The notes beneath the pieces are model-generated. The model did not search any database and had not been told where the DNA came from. It worked only from the letters and a program-made list of their open reading frames with translations. The position numbers were made by a program, and so were the translations under genes. Shown here piece after piece: positions 4,275-26,158 of a DNA stretch of 29,666 nucleotides (position 1 is the stretch's first letter; every line of letters starts with the position of its first letter). The DNA comes from a virus (lineage: Duplodnaviria > Heunggongvirae > Uroviricota > Caudoviricetes), in IMG/VR virus record IMGVR_UViG_3300009034_000003; one strand, written 5' to 3'.

Positions 4275-4616
4275 ATGAGAATTACGCCCGAATTCGATGA
4301 GAGAGAAGCTGACGCGATTATTACTTCGGTATGGTTCAATATGAACATTGATTACAAGCAATTCGGCTTGTTAGATACAAAAAACCGCGCTGAGGATATT
4401 GAGCGGTTTGCAAGTGTACAAGGTGTCCGGTATTCAATTTTGTCCAAGGTTATCGAAGCTGCTCGCGGGTGTTCAAACTACGAGGAGTATGAAAAGATTC
4501 TTGCTCGTGCCAGAGACATTATGGTAGTGGCAAGGGGGGTACAACATGGACAGGGAGGAACAAAAACAGAAATATCAGGAGATAGCGGAGACGATTCGAG
4601 CGGCTCGGAAAGATAG
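4275..4616 (+). CDS. hypothetical protein
   Basis: AGGAG RBS at 4261; overlaps recA start. Confidence 0.6.
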   Translation: MRITPEFDEREADAIITSVWFNMNIDYKQFGLLDTKNRAEDIERFASVQGVRYSILSKVIEAARGCSNYEEYEKILARARDIMVVARGVQHGQGGTKTEISGDSGDDSSGSER

Positions 4617-6487: not shown

Positions 6488-6691
6488 ATGGCAACAAAAT
6501 CAATTAAGGAAGCTTTTGCAGCCGCAATAGAGGAAGTTGCCAGGGAGGATGCGGAGAGGGTGGGATTTGATATTGCTAACGAACCTCATGGATTGGCTAG
6601 AGCGATTATGGCGGTGCTAGCGAGTCAGAAGCTAAGAGCTAAGGCTGTTAAACGGGCCAAAGAGATGGCTGGAGGCGGAGAGGATGTATGA
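6488..6691 (+). CDS. hypothetical protein
   Basis: Short co-oriented ORF. Confidence 0.55.
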   Translation: MATKSIKEAFAAAIEEVAREDAERVGFDIANEPHGLARAIMAVLASQKLRAKAVKRAKEMAGGGEDV

Positions 6692-7280
6692 AGTAGCTAT
6701 TGAGGTTAAGTTCGATGCTGCTCATAGGTTATTGGGCTATGAGGGAAAATGTAAGTTCCTGCACGGCCATTCCTATGTTGCCATTGTCTGTTTATCTAGG
6801 CGAGAGCTAGAGGGCCCCGGATTCGTGATCGATTTTGGCTTTATTAAGAAGCATGTGAAGGGATGGATCGACAAATTTTGGGATCATGCTGTTATCCTGA
6901 ATAAAGAGGATAAACTCGTTACATTCTTGTCCGAACTTAGGCCGGACGAGATATCTGATGTTCTTGAGTCAGTTGGCGGGATAAATCAACAGGAGATAAC
7001 GAGAAGGAGGTTTCTCTGCGATCGTCTGGAAGAGTCACGGGTATTTGTGATGTATAACGATCCAACGGCGGAACGCATGGCTGAACTGCTTTTTAACGTT
7101 GTAAGCACTGCTTGTCCTGACAAGATTCCCCAGGTGATCGGGATTGCGAATGCTGGAGGATTTCCGCTCGAGGCAAGTTTTGGAGAAATTGAGAATCCTA
7201 TTACGGTGGAGTATGTAACAATAAAAGAAACGGCGACATCGTGGGCTACATATAGGCCAGGTGAAGAAGATGCTTCCTAG
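6684..7280 (+). CDS. queD: 6-carboxytetrahydropterin synthase QueD
   Basis: FDAAHRL...CKFLHGHSY, IDFG, DHAVILN, PTAERMA, IKET motifs. Confidence 0.92.
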   Translation: MYEVAIEVKFDAAHRLLGYEGKCKFLHGHSYVAIVCLSRRELEGPGFVIDFGFIKKHVKGWIDKFWDHAVILNKEDKLVTFLSELRPDEISDVLESVGGINQQEITRRRFLCDRLEESRVFVMYNDPTAERMAELLFNVVSTACPDKIPQVIGIANAGGFPLEASFGEIENPITVEYVTIKETATSWATYRPGEEDAS

Positions 7281-8064
7281 AAATCAGTGTCCTTGGGCTT
7301 TAACCTACGCAGATGGTTCCTACGAGTGTATAATGGATCTTGGAAGGCCCAAAGGGTGCGAGGGTGACCGCGAGAAGTGTTCCTTTGGAGACTTTTCCGC
7401 CTATGATCCTAACTTGGAGATGCACATATCTGAAATTTATCCAGCCATTTCAGGTGAGGGAGCAACAGCTGGTACAGTATGTACGATTGTCCGCACTGTT
7501 GGTTGTAATTTGAGATGCTTGTGGTGCGATACGAAGTATGCCTACGAGGGCGGTGATATTGTCTCTACACAGGATATACTGGATGTGGTTATCAAGTTTG
7601 GACTCAATTCAGTGCTTTTTACGGGTGGAGAGCCTCTATTGAACGAGCAGATTGCATCGAATTTCCTGAGGGCGCTGCTCGAGAATGAAATAATTGCGTT
7701 TGTAGAGACTAATGGATCGGTTGATATACGTCCATTTGTACCTTTAGCGCATATAGTACTGGATATTAAGTGTCCTAGTTCCGGGATGAGTGACAAGATG
7801 TTTTGGGATAATGTTCAGTACATCGGCTTTGATGACGAAATCAAGTTCGTTGTGTCTAGTAGGGAAGATTACGAGTACGCTAAGGGTAGGATAGAGGAAC
7901 ACCAATTAACCAAGAGGACTCAGAATATCTTTATGTCTCCGGCATGGGGTGACAAATCGTTTTTTCAGGAGCTATCTAGCTGGATGGTCGTGGATAGATC
8001 CCCAGCGAAATTGTCGATACAGCAACACAAGGTTATCTGGGGCCCGAAGGAAAGAGGTGTATAG
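7270..8064 (+). CDS. queE: 7-carboxy-7-deazaguanine synthase QueE (radical SAM) with Cys-rich N-terminal extension
   Basis: EIYPAISGEG, GCNLRCLWCDT (CxxxCxxC), FTGGEPLL, VETNGS, DIKCPSSG, QQHKVIW. Start uncertain (7261 or 7270). Confidence 0.92.
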   Translation: MLPRNQCPWALTYADGSYECIMDLGRPKGCEGDREKCSFGDFSAYDPNLEMHISEIYPAISGEGATAGTVCTIVRTVGCNLRCLWCDTKYAYEGGDIVSTQDILDVVIKFGLNSVLFTGGEPLLNEQIASNFLRALLENEIIAFVETNGSVDIRPFVPLAHIVLDIKCPSSGMSDKMFWDNVQYIGFDDEIKFVVSSREDYEYAKGRIEEHQLTKRTQNIFMSPAWGDKSFFQELSSWMVVDRSPAKLSIQQHKVIWGPKERGV

Positions 8065-8291
8065 TGTTAGACTACAAGTTAATAGACGTAAAGTTGGTAG
8101 AGGCAGCAGTAGAGGCGATCAGGTCTGGCACCGTTTCCATTATCGGAGAACGATTTGTAGTTGCTGTTGGGGCAGACCTTGCTACTTTGTCGGAAGAGCT
8201 TCGTTTGAGAATTGTTGGTGGTGACATAGTGATGGATTCGCCTGAAGCGGCTGAGGTCAAAAAGGCAATAGGTGTACAGGATGAGGGATGA
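8064..8291 (+). CDS. hypothetical protein
   Basis: Co-oriented ORF. Confidence 0.55.
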   Translation: MLDYKLIDVKLVEAAVEAIRSGTVSIIGERFVVAVGADLATLSEELRLRIVGGDIVMDSPEAAEVKKAIGVQDEG

Positions 8292-8763
8292 GTTTAGACA
8301 GGTTAAGGTTAGCCTTGCTGATGTCCACATTGGTATGCTTGATCGGATGGCTGAGTTTCGTGGGGCGATGACCCGGAGTGAACTTGTTAGAGGGCTAATC
8401 CTCGATGCATTTGGAGCGTTAGGGCGAAGTGTTCCGATGAATCCAAGGCGTAAGGCTGTAAGTATTCCGGTGAGGACTCGTGCTGGCGAGTTTTTAGCGG
8501 TTCTTGATACCGGTTCCGATCATACTCTTGTTCCCGAAAAGTTTGCGGAGGGTTTCACATTTACAAGGACGAAGTCGATATGGACTTTCAATACCATGAT
8601 GCAACAGCGTCTTTATAAGGGCGAGCTTGAGGTGATGGGAAAGAAGATTCAAATCGAGAATGTGCTGCTGGCGAGTGGCGATATAGGCATATTAGGGCTG
8701 GATGTGATGGAACATCTTGAGGTTCTTATCAAAAGGGGCAAAGCGACAATTAAGCTGATCTAA
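8281..8763 (+). CDS. ribbon-helix-helix domain fused to retropepsin-like aspartyl protease
   Basis: N-terminus QVKVSL...LDRMA...TRSELVRGLI (RHH pattern); C-terminus VLDTGSDHTLV...ILGLDVM (clan AA protease motifs). Confidence 0.7.
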   Translation: MRDEFRQVKVSLADVHIGMLDRMAEFRGAMTRSELVRGLILDAFGALGRSVPMNPRRKAVSIPVRTRAGEFLAVLDTGSDHTLVPEKFAEGFTFTRTKSIWTFNTMMQQRLYKGELEVMGKKIQIENVLLASGDIGILGLDVMEHLEVLIKRGKATIKLI

Positions 8764-8765
8764 TT

Positions 8766-9581
8766 ATGCGAGTACCTATCTCTAAGATTGGGGAGTTACA
8801 AAAAGTAGATATCGAGAACGATCGCGACAAAGGCGGGATCGTTTGTTACGACGACTACGCGCGGGTTTGTACCGTTTTTACTGGAACTCGTCGAGATATA
8901 GGTGACCGGTCGCCCTTCCGTATGGCAGAAATGTTCGGGGGTAGCTGGATCGACTATAATAATCACTTCGTTATTCAGCTGGCCGGATGTCCCCTGAACT
9001 GCCCCTACTGTTATGTAGATAATCTAGAAGCAGATACACACTTCTCCGCGGTTTCACTGGTGGAGTTGTATAAAGTTATTAGATTTGAGGCATTAACAAA
9101 GTTTGGAGTGAGTCTGAAAGTATTACATGTTATGGGAGGAGCTCCCGCAGTTTATTGTGAGTTTTGGCCTAAATTGCGGATGGAGTTAGATGCACTGGGT
9201 TCGTATGGCGAAGATGTTATAATATTTTCCAATGTGATTTTGGTAGAGAATTGGTTCTATGGTGTCGAGCCTTGGCGTTTTATGAACATCAAGAACTTTA
9301 TCGTAGAGGGCTGTTTGAAGGGAACGAATCGGAAAAACTTCATGGATAATACGGGTCATGATTTGTTTGGGGCAGCAGTTCGTGAGCTTTTCTACTATGT
9401 CCCCTACGATAATTTTTACCTTTCTCTGATAGGTCACGATGAGGATGACCTCCCGATGATTCACCAGTGGATAGAACCCGAGCGAGTAGATACATTGCAG
9501 ATCGTAGGATACGAGGCGACTAAAGCGAAAATGGCTGTGAGCGATGGACAACATAGGGCAGGAGATGTTGGTTATGGTTAA
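8766..9581 (+). CDS. radical SAM protein
   Basis: GCPLNCPYCYV (CxxxCxxC) and MGGAP motif. Confidence 0.8.
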   Translation: MRVPISKIGELQKVDIENDRDKGGIVCYDDYARVCTVFTGTRRDIGDRSPFRMAEMFGGSWIDYNNHFVIQLAGCPLNCPYCYVDNLEADTHFSAVSLVELYKVIRFEALTKFGVSLKVLHVMGGAPAVYCEFWPKLRMELDALGSYGEDVIIFSNVILVENWFYGVEPWRFMNIKNFIVEGCLKGTNRKNFMDNTGHDLFGAAVRELFYYVPYDNFYLSLIGHDEDDLPMIHQWIEPERVDTLQIVGYEATKAKMAVSDGQHRAGDVGYG

Positions 9582-10862: not shown

Positions 10863-11141
10863 GTGATAGATCTTCGGTGTATAATCTGTGATAAGACTGA
10901 GCGACTGCAACCCTCAGAGATTGCAAAGCGAGGCTGGCTTCTTCGGCATCATGATGAAGCGTATAACCTTATGTTTTGTATTATGTTATGTCCGGAGCAT
11001 AATACTCCCGAGAACGACGAGAAGGCAGTGGGAATTCGTAGGAAGCGTCATGTTCGGATTGTAGCTGAGGATCGATTTCCTGATTGGTATTTTGAAGATG
11101 TTGTGGATGGGGGTAGTAGTGATAAAGAAGATCAAGATTAA
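10863..11141 (+). CDS. hypothetical protein (Cys-containing)
   Basis: CIICD...CPEH, possible Zn site. Confidence 0.55.
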   Translation: MIDLRCIICDKTERLQPSEIAKRGWLLRHHDEAYNLMFCIMLCPEHNTPENDEKAVGIRRKRHVRIVAEDRFPDWYFEDVVDGGSSDKEDQD

Positions 11142-12300
11142 AAGTTTTCAGTCTCATAAGGATACCGAGATATCTCCGTCTCCCGGTGTGAATGTTGTTG
11201 TCGGTAAAAATATGTCTGGAAAGAGTGCTTTGCTTCGGGCATTGCGGCTGTTGTTCTATAATAAACCCGAAGGAAGCGATTTTGTTAGTTGGGGAGATAC
11301 AAACACGGAGGTTGCAATTGAGTATGGGGATCATATAGTACGTCGTGTGAAGGGAAAGAGAAAAAACGTGTATATAGTAGACGATAGCGAGTTTACTAGA
11401 TTCGGTAGAGCGGTTCCCCAAGAGGTTATTGATGTACTAGGAGTAGCTCCTATACGTGTAGATGATGCGGCCTACGAGCTGAACATTGGTGATCCGCACG
11501 CCCCTCCTTTCCTTGTTTCTGAAACAGATGCTGTAAAAGGCAAGGTGTTTTCTAGGCTTGGTGAGCGTTTGCTTGGGGACCTTGTTCGTTTGGATAAAGC
11601 AATTACGAAGGCCAATACCACTCTTCGGAAAATGGGTTCTGAATCCAATGTTTTAGCCAGTGAGGCTTCTACTGTTGAAGGTGCGCTGGACGCTTTTTTG
11701 CCTCTGGATGGCATAGAAGGAAAATTGAGTATGTGCCATAGCCTGCTTGCTAGAGCTGCAAGTATGGAAGAGGATCTTGATCAGCTAGGGTCATATAGTG
11801 AAACGCTTAGGCAGGTAGGAGCTGATATTGAATTTGGTAATAATATAGTTGCTGTGTATGATTTTGTGGATCTCGATTCTAAGGTGTCTGAGGCGGTCGA
11901 TTTCCAGAGGGAACTGGAGGTTCTTACAAAGAGCAGGGGGTATTTAGTTGATATTGAAACGGCTGCGACTGATCTAAAAGCAAGGCACAAAGTACTGGGC
12001 GTTATCCCCGAGATCTCACAAGCCGAGAGGGCACTGGAGGAGCTGGAATCACTGCGTGCTCTCTCGCTTGATTTACAACGAGTAGACAAGGCTATAAATC
12101 GGGCGAAATCTTCGCGAGAACGAGTAGCAAGTCAACTGGACAAGGCGCTTCATGAGTACCAAGAGAAGCTACTCGAGGCGAAAAGGTGCCCGATCTGTTT
12201 TGGTCCTGTGGATGAGCACAGTATAGAAAGGATTTTAGAGGAGCTTACGAGCGATGGAGAGGGCGGAAATAGAGGAGATGGTAAAGGGTCTAATAGCTAA
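11119..12300 (+). CDS. sbcC: SbcC/Rad50 (gp46-like) ATPase, N-terminal half
   Basis: IKIKSFQSH...VVVGKNMSGKSALLRAL (Walker A), coiled coil, ends just after a CPIC zinc hook; no Walker B. Confidence 0.85.
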   Translation: MIKKIKIKSFQSHKDTEISPSPGVNVVVGKNMSGKSALLRALRLLFYNKPEGSDFVSWGDTNTEVAIEYGDHIVRRVKGKRKNVYIVDDSEFTRFGRAVPQEVIDVLGVAPIRVDDAAYELNIGDPHAPPFLVSETDAVKGKVFSRLGERLLGDLVRLDKAITKANTTLRKMGSESNVLASEASTVEGALDAFLPLDGIEGKLSMCHSLLARAASMEEDLDQLGSYSETLRQVGADIEFGNNIVAVYDFVDLDSKVSEAVDFQRELEVLTKSRGYLVDIETAATDLKARHKVLGVIPEISQAERALEELESLRALSLDLQRVDKAINRAKSSRERVASQLDKALHEYQEKLLEAKRCPICFGPVDEHSIERILEELTSDGEGGNRGDGKGSNS

Positions 12301-12493
12301 GTATTCTTCTCTAGGAGAAGTTACTGATGTGTGGTTGAATCCCTATGTGATGGAAGTTCTTGATCCTCGGCCGCCATTGGAACGATTGAACGCGCATTAT
12401 AAAATAGGACCGGTGTGGGTATCAGCGTTTTCAGAGTTACAAGAGGATGAAGTCCGTATAGCATTTTGTACTAAGATTGGTACTGGAGAATGA
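12254..12493 (+). CDS. hypothetical protein
   Basis: Co-oriented ORF overlapping both neighbours. Confidence 0.5.
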   Translation: MERAEIEEMVKGLIAKYSSLGEVTDVWLNPYVMEVLDPRPPLERLNAHYKIGPVWVSAFSELQEDEVRIAFCTKIGTGE

Positions 12494-13359
12494 GTCTCCT
12501 TGTTTTGACCGATATACATATGTCTGCGAGTAAACCAGCCGGAAGAGTAGGTGACTACGTTGCTGATGTGGACGCCAAGTTACAGGAGGTAGCGGACCTC
12601 GCACATAAGTTGAATGTAGATGCTGTTCTTTGTGCGGGTGATATTTTCCACCGACCAGCTCCAGCACTTTCTGTGCTCGCTCGTTTTCTAACCTTTTTGG
12701 AGTGGCTGGATATACGTTTTATTACTATTCCGGGTTCGCACGATTTGGTCGGTAATAATCTTGACGTTTTATACCGGACGGCGATCGGTGTGCTGGATCG
12801 TCTAGGCTTGATCGAGCTGCTCACACCCGTGACAAAAGATGTGACTAGGGTCGGACCGTTTGTTGTAGGGTCACCTTATGTCGATGTTCCAGACATTAAA
12901 CTTGTGCATGAATCAGTAGTCCCGGAACCGACCTTTGGGGAGTACACCTTACTTAAGGATTATAAGGCTCGTTCCAAGATAGTAGTTGTCGGTCATGAGC
13001 ACAGCGGGTATGACCTAAAGACAATTGACAGTACCACTTATGTTTGTCCCGGTTCTTTAGTCAGGACTGTAGCTCGGGAGAGCGAATTGGATCGAAGACC
13101 CAGAGTGGCGATTATACGCGAAGATTACAGTGTCGAGTGGCGTGAGTTACAGATAGCTAAGCCAGGGAGCGAGGTGCTTGTACCACCCATTGTGACCCCT
13201 GAGGTAGATTTTGCTGGTGTTGTCAAAGAATGGGCTTCCGTGAAGATAGAAGAGATTGATGTAACTACACTGCTTAAAGAGGTAGCAGAGGAGGAAGAGG
13301 CCCCCAAAGAAGTTATAGATTACGCGCTTGCGATGCTTGGAGATGATAGTGGCTTATAG
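12490..13359 (+). CDS. sbcD: SbcD/Mre11 (gp47-like) metallophosphoesterase nuclease
   Basis: LTDIH, AGDIFH, PGSHD, HES, GHEH, PGSL motifs. Confidence 0.9.
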   Translation: MSLLVLTDIHMSASKPAGRVGDYVADVDAKLQEVADLAHKLNVDAVLCAGDIFHRPAPALSVLARFLTFLEWLDIRFITIPGSHDLVGNNLDVLYRTAIGVLDRLGLIELLTPVTKDVTRVGPFVVGSPYVDVPDIKLVHESVVPEPTFGEYTLLKDYKARSKIVVVGHEHSGYDLKTIDSTTYVCPGSLVRTVARESELDRRPRVAIIREDYSVEWRELQIAKPGSEVLVPPIVTPEVDFAGVVKEWASVKIEEIDVTTLLKEVAEEEEAPKEVIDYALAMLGDDSGL

Positions 13360-13555
13360 AGTGATGGATCGACGGGGTGATTGTATAAAGATTCTTCGGG
13401 AACAAGAGGCGTTGGAAGCGGGTTATCTTGTAACTCCTTTTGGAGATTTGTTAAGGGCCCGGTTTGAAGAAGCGCCTAGCGGAAAGCTAGTTGGATATTT
13501 TGAGGAAGTTTCAGAGGAAGATTTTGCAGTTCTTCGTGTTATTGGGTGTGGGTGA
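13328..13555 (+). CDS. hypothetical protein
   Basis: Co-oriented short ORF; start uncertain. Confidence 0.45.
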   Translation: MRCLEMIVAYRVMDRRGDCIKILREQEALEAGYLVTPFGDLLRARFEEAPSGKLVGYFEEVSEEDFAVLRVIGCG

Positions 13556-13881
13556 GAGATGTGAAAATGCACACAGATCTGAATGAGCATTTGATAGGCT
13601 TGGCTGATCGTATAGCTGAGTTAAAGGACGAAAGAGCTCGGGTAGAGGGGCAGATGCAGACACTAGAGGCACAGCGTAAGGCTGTCCTGGATGGCTGTCG
13701 AGATATGGGTGTTGACCCTGATAAGTTGGATAACGAGATAGAGTTGAAGGAGAAGTCTTTACATAGTCTGATTCAAGATGTTGAAAAGGCTCTAACCGAT
13801 ATTGAGTTACGTAGGAATGAGGTCATTAAGCGCGAGCGAGATAAGGAGCGAGAGGCTAGTAGCAACGGAGAAGAACGTTAG
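13546..13881 (+). CDS. coiled-coil protein (possibly part of the split SbcC)
   Basis: Heptad-rich E/K/L sequence lying between sbcD and the SbcC C-half. Confidence 0.6.
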   Translation: MWVRDVKMHTDLNEHLIGLADRIAELKDERARVEGQMQTLEAQRKAVLDGCRDMGVDPDKLDNEIELKEKSLHSLIQDVEKALTDIELRRNEVIKRERDKEREASSNGEER

Positions 13882-14470
13882 CTATTTGCTAGGCCGAAGG
13901 AACGAGCTGGCCGAACGGCTTGATAACCTGAGAAGCAGGTTGTCGGCACTTGAAGCTGAGCGAGAACTTCTTACTGCTTCTCGGACGCTTTTTCAAAAGG
14001 TCTCTATGCTGGTGCGATACAAGATTTCGGACCGTTTTGCGGAGCTTGCGACTGATGCTCTTAAGTTTATTTTCCAGCGTGAGGATTTGAAGTTCTTAGT
14101 TGATCTTGATGTCAAGGGCAATCTCCCTGTTGCCTCCTTTTCGGTTGAGGTAGATGGACACGCAGTTGATCCAAGAAGAGCCCTCGGAGGATCTGTTTAT
14201 GAAATAATTGGAGTGTGTTTGAGGTTGATATGCCTAGAAGTTTTTAAGATTAAGGGCCCCTTGATTCTCGACGAGCCTTTACGTTCGGTTGATGATACTA
14301 ATTTGAGCAATGCCCTTGGATTTATTTTGCAATATTGCAAGTCTACCGGCCGACAGCTTTTCATTGTGACTCATAATAATCAGATTGCGAATGCCGCTGA
14401 TAAACTCTTTGAAGTCACACAAGCTAACGGAATAAGTTCTATTCACGAAAGAGCCGTAGGTATTATTTAG
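13802..14470 (+). CDS. sbcC: SbcC/Rad50 ATPase, C-terminal half
   Basis: Coiled coil, then degenerate signature (LGGSVYEII), Walker B/D-loop LILDEPLRSVD, H-loop IVTHN. Start 13802 or 13817. Confidence 0.85.
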   Translation: MSYVGMRSLSASEIRSERLVATEKNVSYLLGRRNELAERLDNLRSRLSALEAERELLTASRTLFQKVSMLVRYKISDRFAELATDALKFIFQREDLKFLVDLDVKGNLPVASFSVEVDGHAVDPRRALGGSVYEIIGVCLRLICLEVFKIKGPLILDEPLRSVDDTNLSNALGFILQYCKSTGRQLFIVTHNNQIANAADKLFEVTQANGISSIHERAVGII

Positions 14471-16760: not shown

Positions 16761-16789
16761 GTGCAAAAAAGATTCAATGGTCATATAAT
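16761..16789 (+). promoter_or_regulatory. putative sigma70-type promoter of the Y RNA array
   Basis: GTGCAA, 17 bp, TATAAT (16784-16789); same CATATAATA context as the 2710 promoter; -35 is imperfect. Confidence 0.5.
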
Positions 16790-16827
16790 AAAGTGAGCCG
16801 CGAAAAAATATTTGAAAAATTGCATAT

Positions 16828-16980
16828 TCGGTTGGACCGTTGTCAGTGAGTTATCACAAGTTCGAATCTTGTTCCGGGTTCCCCGGGGTGAGAGCCTCGG
16901 GCTACATGCCCGGATCGCTCGTTGGTAAGAGCACCCCTCTTCGGAGGGAACCATTCACAAGGCATTTTTTCGTCTGCCGA
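16828..16980 (+). ncRNA. Y RNA-like unit Y1 (permuted tRNA-like cargo)
   Basis: GGACCG 16834 / TCGTCT 16970 bulged helix; GTGAGTTATC; T arm ACAAG-TTCGAAT-CTTGT; closed acceptor; D arm GCTC-GTTGGTAA-GAGC; CCCTC-TTCG-GAGGG arm. Confidence 0.8.
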
Positions 16981-17031
16981 ATTGACGAAGGGGTGCAAAT
17001 TGCGAAAATTGTTAATAAAGAAGTAGTATTC

Positions 17032-17160
17032 TAACGGGCCGTTAGTTATGGGTTATCGGAAAGAGCACCAGCTTCGGCTGGCTGTACCGGTTCAAGCCCG
17101 GTTCCTTGTGCAAACGAGGATAGCTCAATAATAACGCCCATGACACCCACTCGCCCGTTA
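17032..17160 (+). ncRNA. Y RNA-like unit Y2 (tRNA-like cargo opened in D loop)
   Basis: TAACGGGCCG / TCGCCCGTTA; GGGTTATC; order GAGC, CCAGC-TTCG-GCTGG, T arm ACCGG-TTCAAGC-CCGGT, closed acceptor, TAGCTC. Confidence 0.85.
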
Positions 17161-17174
17161 TATCGACGACCTGA

Positions 17175-17308
17175 ATAAATGGGCCGGACGTATGAGGGTT
17201 ATCTCACTTTCAATGAGAAGATGGGAGGTTCGAGTCCTTCCCTACCGAAAGGTAGTAGCTCAAAGGTAGAGCACTAAATATTCCTCGTGCAAACTTTCGC
17301 CCATTTAT
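17175..17308 (+). ncRNA. Y RNA-like unit Y3 (tRNA-like cargo with intact TTC anticodon arm)
   Basis: ATAAATGGGCCG / TCGCCCATTTAT; GGGTTATC; TCTCA-CTTTCAA-TGAGA, T arm GGAGG-TTCGAGT-CCTTC, CTACC-GAAA-GGTAG, D arm GCTC-AAAGGTA-GAGC. Confidence 0.85.
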
Positions 17309-17339
17309 CTTCTTGATATATTGTATCAATTTTGTGTTG

Positions 17340-17451
17340 TGTTGGGTTGGGTTGCTAGAGGGTTGTTACAGGGATTACCGTACAATAGCTTCCGGAGGCT
17401 GTACGGACTTGGAGCAAGGTGCTGGGAAACTTGCAGCAACTCTTCTCAACA
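17340..17451 (+). ncRNA. structured RNA within array (possible degenerate unit)
   Basis: TGTTGGG/CTCAACA and GAGGGTTGT/GCAACTCTT stems, GGGATTAC motif, inner CGTAC/GTACG hairpin; no bulged Ro helix. Confidence 0.35.
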
Positions 17452-17462
17452 TAAGCGATCTT

Positions 17463-17571
17463 ATGTGGGCCGTTGAGTAAAGGTTACCATTAGCACCGCG
17501 ACCAGACCAGGGGTGGTCGTTAATATACCTTCCGCGGTTTAACAGTGTCTTTATTCGCTATTCGCCCACAT
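17463..17571 (+). ncRNA. Y RNA-like unit Y4
   Basis: ATGTGGGCCG / TCGCCCACAT; GAGTAAAG/CTTTATTC stem; GGTTACC; ACCGCG/CGCGGT cargo. Confidence 0.8.
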
Positions 17572-17593
17572 GTTCTTTGACAGGTGAATTACT

Positions 17594-17706
17594 GACTTTT
17601 ATGAGAAGATGATAGACCAAATGAGCCACGGTGCATGGCTGAGGTTTCACATTTGGCATCACCTCCTTTCAAGAGTATCATTCTTCAAATCTTGCTCATA
17701 AGAGTC
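17594..17706 (+). ncRNA. structured RNA within array (non-Y)
   Basis: GACTTTTATGAG/CTCATAAGAGTC 12-bp stem, inner CCAAATG/CATTTGG and AGCCA/TGGCT stems. Confidence 0.4.
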
Positions 17707-17708
17707 TT

Positions 17709-17906
17709 TCGGGCCGGTAGGAGAGGGTTATCAATACGATAAACCTGGTTACGGATCCGTGTAAAATCCGTATTCTGCCACGCGGGCAGAATAAAAGTAA
17801 TAAGCGCACTCGGTCGTGTGGACCGAGGTTAAACAACTAATCACTAGTCGACGGACTATAACTAATCGTAGAACGAAATGTTCGTCCTCGCCTAATATTC
17901 GCCCGA
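17709..17906 (+). ncRNA. Y RNA-like unit Y5 (multi-hairpin cargo)
   Basis: TCGGGCCG / TCGCCCGA; TAGGAGAGGG/TCCTCGCCTA; GGGTTATC; hairpins TACGGA/TCCGTA, TTCTGCC/GGCAGAA, CTCGGTC/GACCGAG, TAGTC/GACTA. Confidence 0.8.
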
Positions 17907-17943
17907 TCACCTGTCAATTCATCTTTGGGGGAGAGTAGAGAAG

Positions 17944-18097
17944 AATTGCGGACCGAAGAGGGAAGATTATCGCCTGCTCAAAAGGTCGTGGCGGACTAGG
18001 AAAACGCCAGGTGCGTGGGTGCACCGTTTCCTTCGGAGCTGGATATCGGAACCGGAGAGAATAAAATATAGACTTCTTTCAAGTCTCGTCCGCAATT
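17944..18097 (+). ncRNA. Y RNA-like unit Y6
   Basis: AATTGCGGACCG / TCGTCCGCAATT (compensatory A-U pair); GATTATC motif variant. Confidence 0.75.
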
Positions 18098-18103
18098 TCA
18101 TTT

Positions 18104-18179
18104 TGCTCCGTAGCTCAATTGGTAGAGTACCTGACTGTTAATCAGGGGGTTGTGGGATCGTTACCCACCGGGGCAGCCA
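18104..18179 (+). tRNA. tRNA-Asn(GTT), atypical T loop
   Basis: Full cloverleaf, U1-A72, CCTGA-CTGTTAA-TCAGG, G73, CCA; T loop ATCGTTA. Confidence 0.85.
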
Positions 18180-18190
18180 CGGGGCAGCCA
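18169..18190. repeat. 11-bp tandem duplication of tRNA-Asn 3' end
   Basis: CGGGGCAGCCA CGGGGCAGCCA. Confidence 0.9.
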
Positions 18191-18203
18191 TATAGAATAA
18201 CAA

Positions 18204-18347
18204 TATCGCTTGGGCCGGAGTTTTGTGGGTTATCCTTTTTGGAAGGCGTAGTCATTGGTTCAAATCCAATCGGGCACCCCAACGGTGCCTGTAGCTCAGC
18301 CAGGTAGAGCGCGTAAAACATCCACGAGCAAGTTTCGCCCGGCGATA
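18204..18347 (+). ncRNA. Y RNA-like unit Y7 (YrlA-like; permuted tRNA retaining CCA)
   Basis: TATCGCTTGGGCCG / TCGCCCGGCGATA; GGGTTATC; T arm ATTGG-TTCAAAT-CCAAT; CGGGCACC-CCA-AC-GGTGCCTG; D arm GCTC-AGCCAGGTA-GAGC. Confidence 0.88.
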
Positions 18348-18352
18348 CTTTT

Positions 18353-18490
18353 TGCTGGACCGCAGTAGATGGGTTACCTTGAAAACCTGAATGTCGTTAG
18401 TTCAAATCTAACCCCTTCCACCAATGGAAGGGTAGCTCAGTTTGGTAGAGCGTCAGGGTGTGTGTTCCATTTACGTTAACTCGTCCAGCA
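18353..18490 (+). ncRNA. Y RNA-like unit Y8 (YrlA-like; complete permuted tRNA-Phe(GAA))
   Basis: TGCTGGACCG / TCGTCCAGCA; GGGTTACC; TTGAAAA-CCTGA-ATGTC-GTTAG-TTCAAAT-CTAAC-CCCTTCC-A-CCA-AT-GGAAGGG-TA-GCTC-AGTTTGGTA-GAGC-G-TCAGG. Confidence 0.9.
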
Positions 18491-18508
18491 TTTGATAAGG
18501 GGATTGAC

Positions 18509-18748
18509 TTGTCTACACTCGAAGCTATTAAATTAACACCAGATATACGGACAGACTTAATGATTCTGGTTGCGAAGGAGCTACAGCAGGCTGCCGGAGA
18601 AGTTGATCTGTCTGTAAAGGAAAACGCCTATACGGTTGCCGTTTCTCTTGTTAGCTCAATCGCTACGCACTTGGAGTCCTGTAAGCTTCAGGAGGAAAGT
18701 CTTTCAGGGCATACAGTAAAACGGATGTTAGTTCCAGTAGGCGTGTAA
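18509..18748 (+). CDS. hypothetical protein embedded in Y RNA array
   Basis: AAGGGG RBS plus TTG start; fills the gap between Y8 and Y9. Confidence 0.5.
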   Translation: MSTLEAIKLTPDIRTDLMILVAKELQQAAGEVDLSVKENAYTVAVSLVSSIATHLESCKLQEESLSGHTVKRMLVPVGV

Positions 18749-18750
18749 TG

Positions 18751-18844
18751 TTCGGGCCGGAAAGTCAGGGTTATCTTAGGCAAAGCCGGTTCATCTAAGT
18801 GGATGGGCCGGTGGGATTTCTCCCTGATTTACAACTCGCCCGAA
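18751..18844 (+). ncRNA. Y RNA-like unit Y9
   Basis: TTCGGGCCG / TCGCCCGAA; AGTCAGGG/CCCTGATT; GGGTTATC; single cargo hairpin. Confidence 0.85.
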
Positions 18845-18870
18845 GCTTGAATAACGGATGGTGATGTGTA

Positions 18871-19071
18871 ATGGCAAGATGTGATACTTGTCCTTGCGCT
18901 CGCTGGGATGGCAGCAGCGATACAACGGTATGGTGCCGGAAGAAAAAGAAATACATAAAGGTCGGTAGGCTAAGGCATTTATTTGCTGCTGCGGAAACTA
19001 TTCAGCACGAACTCGAAGAGAGTAGAAAGATTATTCGGGCCGGAGATTCTCGGTTATCTAATTGCTTTTAG
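18871..19071 (+). CDS. small Cys-rich hypothetical protein embedded in array
   Basis: CDTCPC...WC; 3' end overlaps Y10. Confidence 0.4.
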   Translation: MARCDTCPCARWDGSSDTTVWCRKKKKYIKVGRLRHLFAAAETIQHELEESRKIIRAGDSRLSNCF

Positions 19072-19134
19072 ACTGAGGCCTATTTCCCACAAGAAGTCCC
19101 AGGCCTCTTTATTCCGAGGTCACAACTCGCCTGG
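19034..19134 (+). ncRNA. Y RNA-like unit Y10
   Basis: GGGCCG 19037 / TCGCCT 19127; CTCGG/CCGAG; GGTTATC; GAGGCCT/AGGCCTC cargo. Confidence 0.8.
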
Positions 19135-19142
19135 TATTTTGT

Positions 19143-19215
19143 TGTCTGGGCCGGTTGGTGTTGGTTATCACTAAAACCCTTTAGCAAGAATCCGACGCCG
19201 CTAACTCGCCTGACA
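19143..19215 (+). ncRNA. Y RNA-like unit Y11 (near-minimal)
   Basis: GGGCCG 19148 / TCGCCT 19206; GGTGTTGG/CCGACGCC; GGTTATC. Confidence 0.8.
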
Positions 19216-19221
19216 TTTTCA

Positions 19222-19276
19222 TGGGCCGGAGCACGAGGGTTACCTGTCCAGTTCCCCTTGTGCACTAACTCGCCCA
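19222..19276 (+). ncRNA. Y RNA-like unit Y12 (minimal)
   Basis: TGGGCCG / TCGCCCA; GCACGAGGG/CCCTTGTGC; GGGTTACC. Confidence 0.8.
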
Positions 19277-19290
19277 AATAAAAACTGGAC

Positions 19291-19350
19291 TTCATTGAGC
19301 CGAGCATCAGGGTTATCGGTTGCGTTCCTGGTGCGTTATTCGCTTGTGAA
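19291..19350 (+). ncRNA. Y RNA-like unit Y13 (minimal, abuts Ro60 RBS)
   Basis: GAGCCG / TCGCTT (compensatory); GCATCAGG/CCTGGTGC; GGGTTATC; ends at the GGAGG at 19351. Confidence 0.75.
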
Positions 19351-19363
19351 GGAGGTTTCACAA

Positions 19364-21274
19364 ATGAACAGAAGTTTGCAACAATTCGGTACAAAGAAAA
19401 CGCCTCAAGATGAGCGTATTCCCGGTCGGCCAGAAATGGTCGAGAATTATGCCGGTGGATACGGCTGGGAAGTAGACGACTGGATGAAGCTTCGCAGGTT
19501 CCTTTTCCTAGGAACAGAGGGAGGAACATATTACATTGGTGAGCGCGAGCTTACCAAAATGAACTGCGAAGCTATTATAAGGCTTATCGAGACGGATGGT
19601 GTCAACGTAGTTAATACTGTCGCCGAGATAAGCGACGCAGGTCGCGCTTATAAGAATGATTACGCTCTCTTCGTACTGGCAATGTGTGTTGGTATGGGGG
19701 ACAGTGCGACTAGACGAGCTGCGTTTGATGCTGTGCCAAAGGTTGCAAGGATCGGTACCCATGTGCTTCATCTCATTAGCTTCGCCGAGCAGTTTAGAGG
19801 CTGGGGCAGAGGTTTCAAGGGCGCTGTTGCCGGTTGGTATAATGGTAAGTCGCCAAGGGATCTTGTGTACCAGGTGCTGAAATATCAATCTCGTGACAAG
19901 TGGTCTCAGCGCGATGCTTTAAGATCTTGTCATCCAAAGCCAGCGAGTGACGTTTACGATTTCATCTACAGATACGTCACTCATGGAGTTAATAGACCGT
20001 TGTTTGAGCTTTCACCTGGGCACGGTGACGCTCTAGTTCCAATGGCTTCTGGGACCCTCGGTGGTCTTACAACTCAAGGTATATACGCCGACTTTGGGAA
20101 TAATGGTATCAGTTTTGTAGGAAGGCCTTCTGCAAAGCGAGTAGACGGCGAATGGCGTGTAAAAGATGTTCACGATGGTAAGATAAAGCAAAGCTTTTGC
20201 ATCAAGAAAGAAGGCGACAAGTTCGTTGTGTACGAGGACGCATTGTCATATTCTATGCGCGACATCGTTGCGCTAGTTGACAAGTACGGGGAACATGGCG
20301 TCGGTATGATCGAGGGCTTTGAGGAGGCTAAGAGAGCGGCCTCTGCAATTGAGATCGTGAAACTGATACGCGAGTATAATTTACCTCGTGAGTGCATTCC
20401 AACCCAGTTCCTTAGGGAGAGGGACGTTTGGAAGGAACTGCTTACCGCGGGCAGGGGAATGCCTATGACCGCCATGATACGGAACCTTGGCAATATGTCC
20501 AAGTGCGGTCTTCTCGTAGAGGGTGCTTTCGACATTATCAAATACGTCAGTGAACGTGTAACTGATCAGGAGATCTTGAAGAAAGCGCGTATACATCCGC
20601 TTGGGGTATTAGCCGCACTGAATACCTATGGTCGAGGCCGCGGTTTCAGGAGCGATAGTGAATGGCCAGTGGTCGGAGATGTTATGGATGCTTTGGACAA
20701 GGCTTTCTATTTGTCGTTCGACAATATCGTTCCTACAGACCAAAGAATCTGTATCGGTCTTGACGTTAGTGGTTCAATGGGCGGCGGCGAGATATTAGGT
20801 ATACCAGGTATGCAGCCTAGGATGGGTGCATGCGCAATGGTAATGGTTACCTATAGAACTGAGCCGTATGTTGCTGTCACGGCTTTTTCGCATCAGCTCG
20901 TTCCAGTTAGAATGCAACGGAATGAAAGCTTGAAAAGCCTTATGACTCGCACTGCCGCAATCCCAATGGGTGGAACCGATTGTGCGTTACCTATTCTCTG
21001 GGCGACCGAGCAGTATAAACGGAACTCGGACATAGTGTTCGATGCGTTCATAGTTTATACCGACTACGAGACGTGGTTCGGTAACATTCATCCGTGTCAG
21101 GCGCTAAACCAGTATCGTAACCTGACAGGGCGCCCAGTTCGTATGGCGACGGTCGGTTTGAGGGCTGAACCGTTCACCATTGCTGACCCGGAGGATTCGG
21201 GTACAATGGACTTTGTAGGATTTGACACGGCAGCGCCCGCAATGTTAAGTCAATTCTTACGAGGGGAGCTTTAG
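19364..21274 (+). CDS. rsr: Ro60/Rsr RNA-binding protein (TROVE + vWA), 636 aa
   Basis: NYAGGYGW...LRRFLFLGTEGGTYY, RIGTHVLHL, KYQSRDKWSQRD, LPRECIP, MPMTAMIRNLG, IHP, MIDAS LDVSGSM, GGTDCALP, TDYETW, GFD. ATG at 19364 after GGAGG. Confidence 0.95.
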   Translation: MNRSLQQFGTKKTPQDERIPGRPEMVENYAGGYGWEVDDWMKLRRFLFLGTEGGTYYIGERELTKMNCEAIIRLIETDGVNVVNTVAEISDAGRAYKNDYALFVLAMCVGMGDSATRRAAFDAVPKVARIGTHVLHLISFAEQFRGWGRGFKGAVAGWYNGKSPRDLVYQVLKYQSRDKWSQRDALRSCHPKPASDVYDFIYRYVTHGVNRPLFELSPGHGDALVPMASGTLGGLTTQGIYADFGNNGISFVGRPSAKRVDGEWRVKDVHDGKIKQSFCIKKEGDKFVVYEDALSYSMRDIVALVDKYGEHGVGMIEGFEEAKRAASAIEIVKLIREYNLPRECIPTQFLRERDVWKELLTAGRGMPMTAMIRNLGNMSKCGLLVEGAFDIIKYVSERVTDQEILKKARIHPLGVLAALNTYGRGRGFRSDSEWPVVGDVMDALDKAFYLSFDNIVPTDQRICIGLDVSGSMGGGEILGIPGMQPRMGACAMVMVTYRTEPYVAVTAFSHQLVPVRMQRNESLKSLMTRTAAIPMGGTDCALPILWATEQYKRNSDIVFDAFIVYTDYETWFGNIHPCQALNQYRNLTGRPVRMATVGLRAEPFTIADPEDSGTMDFVGFDTAAPAMLSQFLRGEL

Positions 21275-21295
21275 TGTAGAACATGGGTTGAAGAA

Positions 21296-21335
21296 GCCCG
21301 CTCCCCTTGACCACTAGGGGAGCGGGTTTTTTTTT
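21296..21335 (+). terminator. intrinsic terminator after Ro60
   Basis: CCCGCTCCCCT/AGGGGAGCGGG 11-bp stem followed by T9. Confidence 0.92.
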
Positions 21336-25365: not shown

Positions 25366-25623
25366 ATGGAATTCAAAGAGTCACGACATGGAAGAAGAAT
25401 AAGGCATACCGAGCGAGTTATTAGGAACAGGTTACGGTTTCTCAAGGCAATGGGACCGGATGAGTGGTATAAGGTGCATCTTGGGGATAGGCACAGATTA
25501 GCTAAGAGGCACCCTTGGGATTGCGGTCGAAGCAAATGTCATATATGCCATCCCGAAAAGCTTTTTGGGCGACCGAAAGCCAAGAATATAATACCGAAGT
25601 ATGAATATGAAGAGATACCCTAA
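25366..25623 (+). CDS. hypothetical basic protein
   Basis: HPWDCGRSKCHICHPEK, putative Zn motif. Confidence 0.65.
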   Translation: MEFKESRHGRRIRHTERVIRNRLRFLKAMGPDEWYKVHLGDRHRLAKRHPWDCGRSKCHICHPEKLFGRPKAKNIIPKYEYEEIP

Positions 25624-26158
25624 GATATACAGGATTCAAATAGAGGGTTTTGTCAAGAGAGGAAAGTACTATCTTACTCCTGATGAAGTTACTCGTCTTC
25701 TTGATGGTCCAATTTGCGTCGAAGAGAAGATCGATGGGAAACTCGTGGAGTCACCTCAACATGAGCAAGAGGGTTATATTCTTTTTTACGAGAATGCTAA
25801 GCGAAGGCACACTGTAGAATACATGCAATTGCCAGCTTGGCTAATTGGTATTGATGTTTGGGATGGAGAATGTTTTCTCGGCCGGACAGACAGGGAAATA
25901 GTCTTTGGGGCGTTGGGCGTTCCTGTTGCTCCATTGCTTTTCAAAGGCTGTGTAAATAGTATTCATTCACTCATCACTTTCATAGGCCAGCCTTCAGCAT
26001 ATGGTGCTGAACGTATAGAAGGGATTGTTATCAAGAATTACAGCCAACAGATGATGGGTAAAATTGTTGATCCGGTTTTCGATCGCATAGTGGATACAGC
26101 AGGTCATCATCTGAAAAGGGCTTTTGTTAGAAACAGATTGGATTTGAGCTATGTCTAA
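25601..26158 (+). CDS. ATP-dependent RNA ligase, Rnl2-like (minimal nucleotidyltransferase domain)
   Basis: YPKI, motif I EEKIDG, FYEN, IGIDV, VPVAPLLFKG, motif IV EGIVIK, motif V GKIV. Confidence 0.75.
   Translation: MNMKRYPKIYRIQIEGFVKRGKYYLTPDEVTRLLDGPICVEEKIDGKLVESPQHEQEGYILFYENAKRRHTVEYMQLPAWLIGIDVWDGECFLGRTDREIVFGALGVPVAPLLFKGCVNSIHSLITFIGQPSAYGAERIEGIVIKNYSQQMMGKIVDPVFDRIVDTAGHHLKRAFVRNRLDLSYV

What the first reader, a model, noticed from the sequence alone, without database searches (positions are those of the whole stretch)
16828..21335. Tandem array of 13 Y-RNA-like genes feeding directly into a Ro60 gene
Seen: 13 units, each closed by the same bulged helix, with covariation. Pairs are GGGCCG/TCGCCC (17036, 17181, 17467, 17711, 18212, 18754, 19223), GGGCCG/TCGCCT (19037, 19148), GGACCG/TCGTC(C/T) (16834, 17950, 18357) and GAGCCG/TCGCTT (19297). 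Each also has an upper stem and a GGTTAY motif, but different flanking stems and cargo. The array ends at the Ro60 RBS, and a strong terminator follows Ro60. Established: Ro60 binds a helix with a bulged C (GGUCCGA/UUGACC type), and Y RNAs (YrlA/YrlB, Deinococcus Yrn1) are encoded next to rsr in bacteria and some phages, usually as one or a few copies. Inference: this is a modular Ro60-RNP repertoire, one protein with a dozen interchangeable RNA adaptors or decoys, possibly made as one transcript. I do not recall an array this large, but novelty needs a literature and database check.
Basis: partly seen in the sequence, partly recalled or inferred. Interest (0 to 1): 0.95.

Follow-up and report, generated by a model that had tools for sequence, protein, structure and literature searches.

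The report
Thirteen Y RNA genes before phage Ro60
A large uncultured phage encodes 13 small RNAs that share the stem bound by the RNA-quality-control protein Ro60 but carry different bodies, placed directly before its Ro60 gene; published systems have one to four such RNAs, so this is a much expanded form of a known RNA-protein system.

Summary
Thirteen units lie on the + strand between 16828 and 19350. Each is closed by a GGRC[C]G / CGYCC helix with a bulged C, followed by a unit-specific upper stem and a TTAYC motif. The array ends 13 nt before the start codon of a true Ro60 gene (19364-21274), which is followed by a strong terminator.

A covariance model built from 9 short units found 8 of the 10 window units that were not used to build it. 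It gave no confident hit (E<=1) elsewhere in the window. Paired positions are 93% against 40-51% in slid controls, and compensatory changes are abundant.

The array is collinear and conserved in relatives: about 18 units where Ro60 is 70% identical, and about 12 where it is 62% identical. With the same model at its default filters, 79 other viral Ro60 loci gave 0-4 hits each.

Five units carry YrlA-type tRNA-like modules. The handle itself resembles animal Y RNAs and nematode sbRNAs more than bacterial YrlA.

The array is not purely tandem. It holds a tRNA-Asn gene and at least one conserved small protein gene.

Ro60 binding, expression and processing are untested. No paper I found describes more than four Y RNAs per locus. 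This scan has, however, already reported arrays of 10-13 units in other phages on other DNA.

The parts
16761..16796 (+). Promoter-like element at the head of the array: GTGCAA, 17 nt, TATAAT, then AAAGTGA
   Evidence: Exact match to the phage's recurring TAWAATAWAGTGA motif at 16784-16796. The same arrangement (GTGCCA, 17 nt, TATAAT, AGAGTG, behind a T-run) heads the array in L007. Its function is inferred.
16828..16980 (+). Y unit 1 (GGACCG/TCGTCT), tRNA-like body
   Evidence: Motif and fold. Collinear with L007:3747-3801, where the unit hits Rfam YrlA at 35.3 bits. Not scored by R2.
17032..17160 (+). Y unit 2 (GGGCCG/TCGCCC), body with T-arm-like and D-arm-like elements
   Evidence: R2 28.5 bits. 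Rfam sbRNA RF01656 28.2 bits. Fold.
17175..17308 (+). Y unit 3, YrlA-type tRNA-like body
   Evidence: R2 27.3 bits. Rfam YrlA 28.5 bits, aligned end to end. Orthologue at L007:4093-4257.
17462..17572 (+). Y unit 4, non-tRNA body
   Evidence: R2 31.3 bits. Orthologue at L007:4401-4545, 76% identical.
17709..17906 (+). Y unit 5, long multi-hairpin body (about 190 nt)
   Evidence: Motif and fold. The 5' part matches L007:4615-4655. Not scored by R2.
17944..18097 (+). Y unit 6 (GGACCG/TCGTCC, GATTATC)
   Evidence: R2 18.9 bits. Orthologue at L007:4896 onward.
18104..18179 (+). tRNA-Asn(GTT) inside the array
   Evidence: ARAGORN. Rfam tRNA 61.2 bits. A tRNA-Asn sits at the same place in L007, 5020-5095.
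18206..18345 (+). Y unit 7, YrlA-type tRNA-like body
   Evidence: Rfam YrlA 38.3 bits. R2 15.5 bits.
18353..18490 (+). Y unit 8 (GGACCG/TCGTCC), YrlA-type tRNA-like body
   Evidence: Rfam YrlA 38.9 bits and sbRNA 22.1 bits. R2 31.4 bits.
18458..18748 (+). ORF of uncertain status (96 aa from GTG)
   Evidence: No Pfam match. No relative in the related loci.
18751..18844 (+). Y unit 9, hairpin body
   Evidence: R2 36.3 bits. sbRNA 28.1 bits.
18871..19071 (+). Conserved small Cys-rich protein gene (66 aa); its 3' end overlaps unit 10
   Evidence: 60% identical over 50 aa to L008:1749-1916, E 1e-20.
19035..19134 (+). Y unit 10 (GGGCCG/TCGCCT)
   Evidence: R2 29.2 bits. 85% identical to L007:7775-7891.
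19143..19215 (+). Y unit 11 (GGGCCG/TCGCCT), minimal
   Evidence: R2 40.9 bits; used to train the model.
19222..19276 (+). Y unit 12, minimal stem-bulge-stem RNA
   Evidence: Rfam sbRNA RF01656 35.3 bits against a gathering score of 38. R2 62.8 bits; used to train the model.
19291..19350 (+). Y unit 13 (GAGCCG/TCGCTT); its closing helix abuts the Ro60 ribosome-binding site
   Evidence: R2 36.6 bits; used to train the model. Folds.
19364..21274 (+). Ro60/Rsr orthologue (636 aa; GGAGG at 19351-19355)
   Evidence: Pfam TROVE plus vWA_Ro60. PDB 2nvo at 3e-112 and 1yvp at 1e-110, with a DVSGSM MIDAS motif and about 100 extra residues between 209 and 309.
21290..21335 (+). Intrinsic terminator
   Evidence: 18-bp hairpin followed by a T9 run; -32.4 kcal/mol, z -5.5.

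Best explanation
This is an expanded Y RNA operon that serves the phage's own Ro60.

Each of the 13 RNAs has the same handle. Its 5' and 3' ends pair into a lower stem of GGRC[C]G / CGYCC with a bulged C. An asymmetric loop follows, then a unit-specific upper stem of about 9 bp, then UUAYC. This is the type of site that Ro60 binds in animal Y RNAs.

The bodies differ. Five are YrlA-type tRNA-like modules, five are other structured modules, and three are minimal hairpins.

I infer that the region is transcribed from the conserved promoter at about 16784, possibly with internal starts, through Ro60 to the terminator at about 21335. I also infer that it is cut into single RNAs together with the embedded tRNA-Asn, as in M. 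smegmatis, where YrlA and YrlB are processed from one precursor upstream of rsr.

I further infer that each RNA loads onto a Ro60 ring through the handle, and that its body acts as an adaptor or gate. The body would tether Ro60 to a particular host partner, such as PNPase or other exoribonucleases, or tRNA-recognising enzymes in the case of the tRNA-like bodies. Alternatively it would control which RNAs reach the Ro60 cavity. One protein would thus be split into a dozen specialised particles during infection, probably to control RNA turnover and tRNA damage.

What is shown: the shared structure, its covariation, its conservation and its linkage to Ro60. What is inferred: binding, processing and the roles of the bodies.
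For: Structure:
- All 13 units fold closed by the handle.
- RNAalifold on a plain MAFFT alignment of 9 units recovers both stems, and 8 of 14 pairs show compensatory changes.
- On 31 units from three phages, 93.3% of cells are paired against 40-51% when partners are slid. 118 cells are changed on both sides against 21-32 in the slid controls. 12 of 17 pairs show compensatory change, and no shuffle out of 500 reaches the covariation score.
- Each upper stem matches its own partner: 8.3 of 9 for self against 6.45 of 9 for non-self, and the own partner is best or joint best in 11 of 13.

Specificity:
- R2 hits in the window, L007 and L008 (50.9 kb, both strands) are all on the + strand and all inside the arrays.
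- On 80 other IMG/VR Ro60 loci (789 kb), all 105 hits at E<=1 are on the Ro60 strand. Most lie within about 1.5 kb upstream of the gene.

Independent models:
- Rfam YrlA aligns end to end with units 8, 7 and 3 (38.9, 38.3 and 28.5 bits).
- The nematode sbRNA model, a Y RNA homologue, hits units 12, 2, 9, 8 and 10, at up to 35.3 bits against a gathering score of 38. L007 shows the same pattern.

Conservation:
- Unit order is collinear with L007 at 69-88% DNA identity, against about 70% for Ro60 itself.
- L007 has about 18 units and L028 about 12.
- The promoter is conserved in L007.

Protein and context:
- The protein is a true Ro60.
- tRNA genes and an RNA ligase lie downstream.

Precedent:
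- Y RNAs lie upstream of rsr and are processed from one precursor (PMC4201824).
- The Ro60 of Thermus phage phiLo binds two upstream Y-like RNAs and host PNPase (PMC12135203).
Against: - There is no expression, end-mapping or binding data.
- No unit reaches an Rfam gathering score, and Rfam Y_RNA (RF00019) gave no hit at E<=10.
- The bacterial YrlA motif GNCGAAN0-1G is absent from all 13 units.
- Units 1 and 5 are not scored by R2.
- Alignment A6 was fitted to the model, which inflates the paired percentages.
- Four promoter-like sites inside the array argue against a single transcript.
- The roles I assign to the bodies rest on analogy alone.
Confidence: 0.75

Rival explanations
1. Decoy library. 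The RNAs do bind Ro60, which stabilises them. Their bodies are baits that soak up host enzymes attacking tRNA or other RNAs, such as defence nucleases, rather than adaptors that direct Ro60 activity.
For: Five bodies mimic tRNA. The locus sits within a phage tRNA array beside an RNA ligase. Many different bodies would suit many different targets. The phiLo Ro60-Yrl complex attenuates host PNPase (PMC12135203).
Against: In YrlA-type modules the handle takes the place of the anticodon arm (alignments). Nucleases that read the anticodon loop would therefore lack their site. Eight bodies are not tRNA-like. No host defence gene is known here.
Confidence: 0.15
2. Multi-handle leader. The array works mainly as one long transcript carrying many Ro60 sites. 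It would act as a scaffold or sponge that sets the level of free Ro60 and autoregulates Ro60 translation, not as 13 separate RNAs.
For: There is one conserved head promoter and one terminator after Ro60. The last handle abuts the ribosome-binding site, and in L007 and L008 the site also directly follows a TCGCCCGTG 3' strand. An alternative hairpin can hide the ribosome-binding site and AUG.
Against: A tRNA gene embedded in the array implies cutting by RNase P and RNase Z. Protein genes are interspersed. The bodies are conserved unit by unit in L007, which a pure sponge would not need. The alternative hairpin is not significant (z -1.3) and is not conserved.
Confidence: 0.07
3. The units are not Ro60 partners. 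The shared stems are processing or insulating elements of a tRNA/small-RNA operon, for example double-strand nuclease sites, or a repeat family that happens to lie next to Ro60.
For: No binding data exist. The units sit among tRNA genes. No Rfam gathering score is reached.
Against: The same handle model finds hits on the Ro60 strand, next to the gene, in dozens of unrelated viral contigs whose hits range from 33 to 66% G+C. The handle copies the defined Ro60 site of animal Y RNAs: a helix with a bulged C, a bulge on the opposite strand, an upper stem and UUAUC (PMC4726728). No copies occur elsewhere in the 29.7-kb window.
Confidence: 0.03

Closest known systems
YrlA/YrlB with Rsr in Salmonella, M. 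smegmatis and mycobacteriophages (Rfam RF02553; Chen et al. 2014, PMC4201824)
   Same: The RNAs are encoded directly upstream of Ro60 on the same strand. More than one RNA occurs per locus. Five units have a T-arm, an acceptor-like hairpin and a D-arm in the YrlA order. In M. smegmatis the RNAs are processed from one precursor.
   Different: There are 13 RNAs here (12-18 in relatives), against 355 RNAs in 276 genomes in that survey. Eight bodies are not tRNA-like. The handle keeps both strands and reads GGRCCG with a bulged C, not GNCGAAN0-1G. Scores are 29-39 bits against a gathering score of 69.
Thermus phage phiLo Ro60 with Yrl1 and Yrl2 (Hu et al. 2025, PMC12135203; PDB 9KOP, 9L5Y)
   Same: A phage-encoded Ro60 with Y-like RNAs upstream of the gene. 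Binding was shown there, and a ternary complex with host PNPase lowers PNPase activity. It is the nearest functional precedent.
   Different: phiLo has two RNAs with a CGAA motif in a bulge. Here there are 13, with a CCG bulged-C helix plus UUAYC. The phiLo protein did not appear among the PDB sequence hits for this Ro60 at E<=0.001.
Animal Y RNAs and nematode stem-bulge RNAs (Rfam RF01656; review PMC4726728)
   Same: A lower stem with a single bulged C and a bulge on the opposite strand, a conserved upper stem (GUG/CAC in units 1 and 7), UUAUC at the start of the loop, and a variable loop. Five units hit RF01656, the best at 35.3 bits against 38. C. elegans likewise has at least 18 sbRNA genes.
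   Different: Position 3 of the helix is G-C or A-U, not U-A. There are no Pol III signals. The genes are clustered in an operon with Ro60. Some units carry tRNA-like modules, which are not seen in animal Y RNAs (PMC4201824). No hit reaches the gathering score, and RF00019 gave none.
Deinococcus radiodurans Yrn1/Yrn2 with Rsr and PNPase (RYPER)
   Same: Both strands of the Ro60-binding helix are retained, as in animals (PMC4201824). Up to four small RNAs lie upstream of rsr. The Y RNA acts as tether and gate, which is the mechanism I propose here.
   Different: There are far fewer RNAs, and the tRNA-like module has a different layout. The system is bacterial and stress-induced rather than phage-borne.

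Membership tests
Y RNA in the broad sense (Ro60-associated noncoding RNA) | Encoded next to, and on the same strand as, a Ro60/TROVE gene (the prokaryotic criterion of Chen et al. 2014) | tested here: met
   The units lie at 16828-19350 and Ro60 at 19364-21274, all on the + strand.
Y RNA in the broad sense (Ro60-associated noncoding RNA) | The 5' and 3' ends pair into a stem that holds the conserved Ro60-binding helix with a single bulged C | tested here: met
   Folds, RNAalifold and pair counts with controls. This is in silico only.
Y RNA in the broad sense (Ro60-associated noncoding RNA) | Physically bound and stabilised by Ro60 | not testable with these tools
   Needs pull-down or gel-shift experiments.
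Animal Y RNA / nematode sbRNA (RF00019, RF01656) | An upper stem and a UUAUC motif at the 5' edge of the loop (PMC4726728) | tested here: met
   TTAYC is present in 13 of 13 units directly after the upper stem. 8 of 9 upper-stem pairs covary.
Animal Y RNA / nematode sbRNA (RF00019, RF01656) | Reaches the Rfam gathering score | tested here: not met
   The best RF01656 hit is 35.3 bits against 38. RF00019 gave no hit at E<=10.
YrlA (RF02553) | A tRNA-like module with T-arm, acceptor-like hairpin and D-arm between the handle strands | tested here: met
   This holds for 5 of 13 units. Units 8, 7 and 3 align to the whole model with their T and D arms at high posterior probability. Units 1 and 2 were judged by motif and by the L007 orthologue.
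YrlA (RF02553) | Reaches the Rfam gathering score (69 bits) | tested here: not met
   Scores are 38.9, 38.3 and 28.5 bits.
YrlA (RF02553) | A GNCGAAN0-1G motif near the 5' end | tested here: not met
   It is absent from all 13 units. They read GGRCCG(G/A/U/C).
Ro60 / Rsr protein | A TROVE (HEAT-repeat ring) domain followed by a vWA domain with a MIDAS motif | tested here: met
   Pfam PF05731 and PF25045. The protein aligns over its full length to 2nvo and 1yvp and has DVSGSM.

The most novel reading that the evidence does not exclude
These phage RNAs link two RNA classes that the literature treats as not homologous. A single molecule carries the animal-type handle (a two-stranded helix with a bulged C, an upper stem and UUAUC) together with the bacterial YrlA-type tRNA-like module. 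If this reflects shared ancestry, the upper stem and UUAUC would be ancient features of the Ro60 particle. In animals they are credited with a role in DNA replication. The 12-18-unit arrays would then be a natural library of exchangeable adaptor heads on one protein-binding handle, which could be reprogrammed experimentally.
Probability: 0.25. Interest if true: 0.8.

Novelty: new variant of a known kind. Interest (0 to 1): 0.62.

Why it matters
Ro60 and Y RNAs are conserved from bacteria to humans, yet what the variable parts of Y RNAs do is still unclear. Studied systems offer only one to four RNAs.

A phage clade with 12-18 RNAs on one shared handle is a natural comparison set. The handle is constant and the bodies vary, with some tRNA-like and some not. 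The unit-by-unit conservation seen for at least eight of the 13 window units suggests that each of these has its own job.

This makes the adaptor-or-gate model directly testable, through one pull-down followed by unit deletions. It also points to Ro60 particles as a phage tool for controlling host RNA decay or tRNA damage.

The animal-like handle, including UUAUC, bears on whether bacterial and animal Y RNAs share ancestry.

Tried and rejected
- A single-sequence model (R1, from unit 12 alone) was too specific and found little. I replaced it with R2.
- MAFFT alignments of units of unequal length misplaced the 3' strand. Only the set of short units (A5) was usable.
- My fixed-motif scanner found almost nothing in distant Ro60 loci L001-L006. 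R2 did find units there.
- There was no near-identical DNA in the GenBank phage collection.
- No whole genome is held for this window, so I could not look for further units elsewhere in the phage.
- The contig of the closest relative (Ro60 84% identical) has no DNA on file, and P0003 could not be located.
- Spacers 17309-17460 and 17574-17704 fold moderately (z -2.7 and -1.7) but have no handle. I did not count them as units.
- ORF 18458-18748 shows no conservation.
- I rejected a repeat or mobile-element reading. The units are strand-specific, occur only at this locus, and vary with structure-preserving changes.
- I did not run a complex prediction, because that tool does not score protein-RNA pairs.

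Full report
**What is there**

The window looks like part of a large phage. All genes lie on the + strand and there are seven tRNA genes. Earlier notes place it in an uncultured large phage.

ORF 19364-21274 encodes a 636-aa Ro60. It matches Pfam TROVE at 4.9e-32 and vWA_Ro60 at 1.6e-51. It matches D. radiodurans Rsr (2nvo) at 3e-112 and X. laevis Ro60 (1yvp) at 1e-110. It has a DVSGSM MIDAS motif and about 100 extra residues between positions 209 and 309.

The gene is followed by an 18-bp hairpin and a T9 run (-32.4 kcal/mol, z -5.5).

**The 13 units**

The 5' motif (GRRCCG, then 4-14 nt, then RKTTAY) occurs 12 times, only on the + strand and only between 16834 and 19297. The 13th unit, at 17950, has GATTATC.

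The A at position 3 covaries perfectly with a T in the 3' strand. The 3-5 bp outside the core helix differ in every unit but stay complementary.

Each unit's minimum-free-energy fold is closed by this stem. Unit lengths range from 55 to 198 nt. Spacers between the last units are 6-14 nt and A/U-rich.

**Structure tests**

- RNAalifold on a plain MAFFT alignment of nine short units (three from the window, six from relatives) recovered both stems. 8 of 14 pairs showed compensatory changes.
- I built model R2 from that alignment, with 17 pairs and a bulged C. With filters off it found 11 of the 13 window units, including 8 that were not used for training. Every hit at E<=1 in 50.9 kb and on both strands lay on the + strand inside an array.
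- On the resulting 31-unit alignment, 93.3% of cells pair against 40-51% when partners are slid by 1-3 columns. 118 cells are changed on both sides against 21-32. 8 of 9 upper-stem pairs show compensatory changes. No shuffle out of 500 reaches the covariation score. That alignment is fitted to the model, so one search is the cleaner control.
- Upper stems are unit-specific. The self score is 8.3 of 9 and the non-self score 6.45 of 9.
- R2 does not score units 1 and 5, which have interrupted upper stems and long bodies. They rest on motif, fold and orthology.

**Independent models**

In E-value mode, Rfam YrlA (RF02553) aligns end to end to units 8, 7 and 3, at 38.9, 38.3 and 28.5 bits against a gathering score of 69. 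The T-arm, the acceptor-like hairpin and the D-arm are clearly matched.

The nematode stem-bulge RNA family RF01656 hits units 12, 2, 9, 8 and 10, the best at 35.3 bits against 38. These RNAs are described as Y RNA homologues (PMC4726728).

Nothing reaches a gathering score, and RF00019 gives no hit.

**Relatives**

- The Ro60 has relatives at 84, 78, 70, 69 and 65% identity in metagenomes.
- L007 (70%) carries about 18 handle units in the 4.4 kb before its Ro60. Sixteen come from R2 and two more from motif alone.
- L008-L010 (65%) have at least four units before the contigs end.
- L028 (62%, IMG/VR) has about 12.
- The window and L007 arrays are collinear. Units 1, 3, 4, 5, 6, 7, 10 and 11/12 have counterparts at 69-88% DNA identity, and the tRNA-Asn sits in the same place. 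Ro60 itself is about 70% identical at the DNA level.
- L007 has extra units, extra tRNAs and an HNH-like ORF.
- The head of the array carries a promoter-like element (GTGCMA, 17 nt, TATAAT, ARAGTG) that is conserved in L007. It matches a motif noted earlier across this phage.

**Survey**

Of 498 IMG/VR contigs that encode a Ro60 relative, I fetched 80. With default filters R2 gave 105 hits at E<=1 in 789 kb. All are on the Ro60 strand, and most lie within about 1.5 kb upstream of the gene.

By my hand count from that table, loci have 0-4 hits, apart from L028 with 6. Filters off raises L028 to about 12, while three other well-populated loci stay at 4-6.

Five further loci (L001, L002, L004, L005 and L006) gave 0-5 hits with filters off.

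Multi-RNA handle arrays before phage Ro60 genes are therefore common. The 12-18-unit size is a trait of this clade.

**Comparison with the literature**

- Chen et al. 2014 report 355 YrlA-like RNAs in 254 bacteria and 22 phages. They describe a GNCGAAN0-1G motif and note that only the 5' strand of the helix is recognisable in Salmonella and M. smegmatis. They show that M. smegmatis YrlA and YrlB lie upstream of rsr and are processed from one precursor. They also state that animal Y RNAs lack tRNA-like modules.
- Hu et al. 2025 show that a Thermus phage Ro60 binds two upstream Y-like RNAs and host PNPase, and that this attenuates PNPase.
- The review PMC4726728 defines the animal Ro60 site as a helix with a bulged C and a bulge on the opposite strand. 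It notes a conserved upper stem and a UUAUC motif in Y RNAs and sbRNAs, and calls bacterial Y RNAs not homologous.

The units here lack GNCGAAN0-1G. They have the two-stranded bulged-C helix, the upper stem and UUAYC in 13 of 13, and five also carry the YrlA-type module.

Searches for Ro60, Y RNA, YrlA and phage found no paper describing more than four Y RNAs at a locus.

This scan has already reported arrays of 4-13 units beside Ro60 in other phages, and of seven in a cyanobacterium. I did not re-test those.

**Mechanism**

The shared, covarying, conserved handle and its linkage to Ro60 are shown. The following steps are inferred:

- transcription from the head promoter through to the Ro60 terminator;
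- processing into single RNAs together with the tRNA;
- loading of each RNA on Ro60 through the handle;
- bodies that act as adaptors or gates, by analogy with RYPER and phiLo.

Four internal promoter-like sites leave the number of transcripts open.

The context fits a role in RNA turnover or tRNA damage control. It includes a downstream tRNA array with an RNA ligase (PF09414), 7-deazaguanine-type genes, RecA and SbcCD-like genes, and a methyltransferase directly upstream.

**Verdict**

This is a real and well-supported expansion of a known RNA-protein system. It is conserved in a phage clade and has an animal-like handle. Function is untested.

Noticed in passing
L007:4266-4390: A unit with the Y handle encloses a near-complete tRNA-like gene. 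Rfam tRNA scores 43.1 bits at 4285-4363, and ARAGORN calls a 4-base anticodon (gtac). It has no counterpart in the window.
   Followed up: no
window 19340-19366; L007:7975-8003; L008:2237-2264: In all three phages the Ro60 ribosome-binding site directly follows a TCGCYYGTG 3' handle strand. In the window an alternative hairpin (UUGUGAAG/UUUCACAA) can hide the ribosome-binding site and AUG (z -1.3, not conserved). Ro60 may control its own translation.
   Followed up: partly
window 18871-19071: A small Cys-rich protein gene (MARCDTC...) lies inside the array. It is 60% identical in L008-L010 and matches no Pfam family. Its 3' end overlaps unit 10.
   Followed up: partly
window 19988-20308 (Ro60 residues about 209-309): There are about 100 extra residues in the Ro60 ring relative to 2nvo and 1yvp. 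The L028 relative is only about 569 aa yet still has about 12 units, so the insertion is not needed for a large array.
   Followed up: partly
window 17309-17460 and 17574-17704: Two spacers inside the array fold into long hairpins (z -2.7 and -1.7) but lack the handle. They may be other small RNAs or processing elements.
   Followed up: partly
window 25601-26158: A short RNA ligase-family gene (PF09414, 2.2e-08) sits inside the downstream tRNA array, which holds tRNAs Glu, Leu, Trp, Arg, His and Tyr.
   Followed up: no
window 6684-9581: A PTPS/QueD-like gene and a QueE-like radical-SAM gene (a second ORF matches Radical_SAM only below the Pfam cutoff) suggest 7-deazaguanine synthesis. RecA (4546-5568) and SbcCD-like genes (11092-14470) lie nearby.
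   Followed up: no
L007:6419-6865: An HNH-like ORF (CANCH motif) is inserted in the relative's Y RNA array, along with extra tRNA-Pro and tRNA-Ala genes. The arrays gain and lose parts.
   Followed up: no
window 18379-18457 (unit 8): The acceptor-like hairpin of unit 8 has a loop reading ACCAAU, that is a CCA-like end. Another first-stage note reads this unit as a permuted tRNA-Phe. I confirmed only the YrlA-type T-arm, hairpin and D-arm order.
   Followed up: partly
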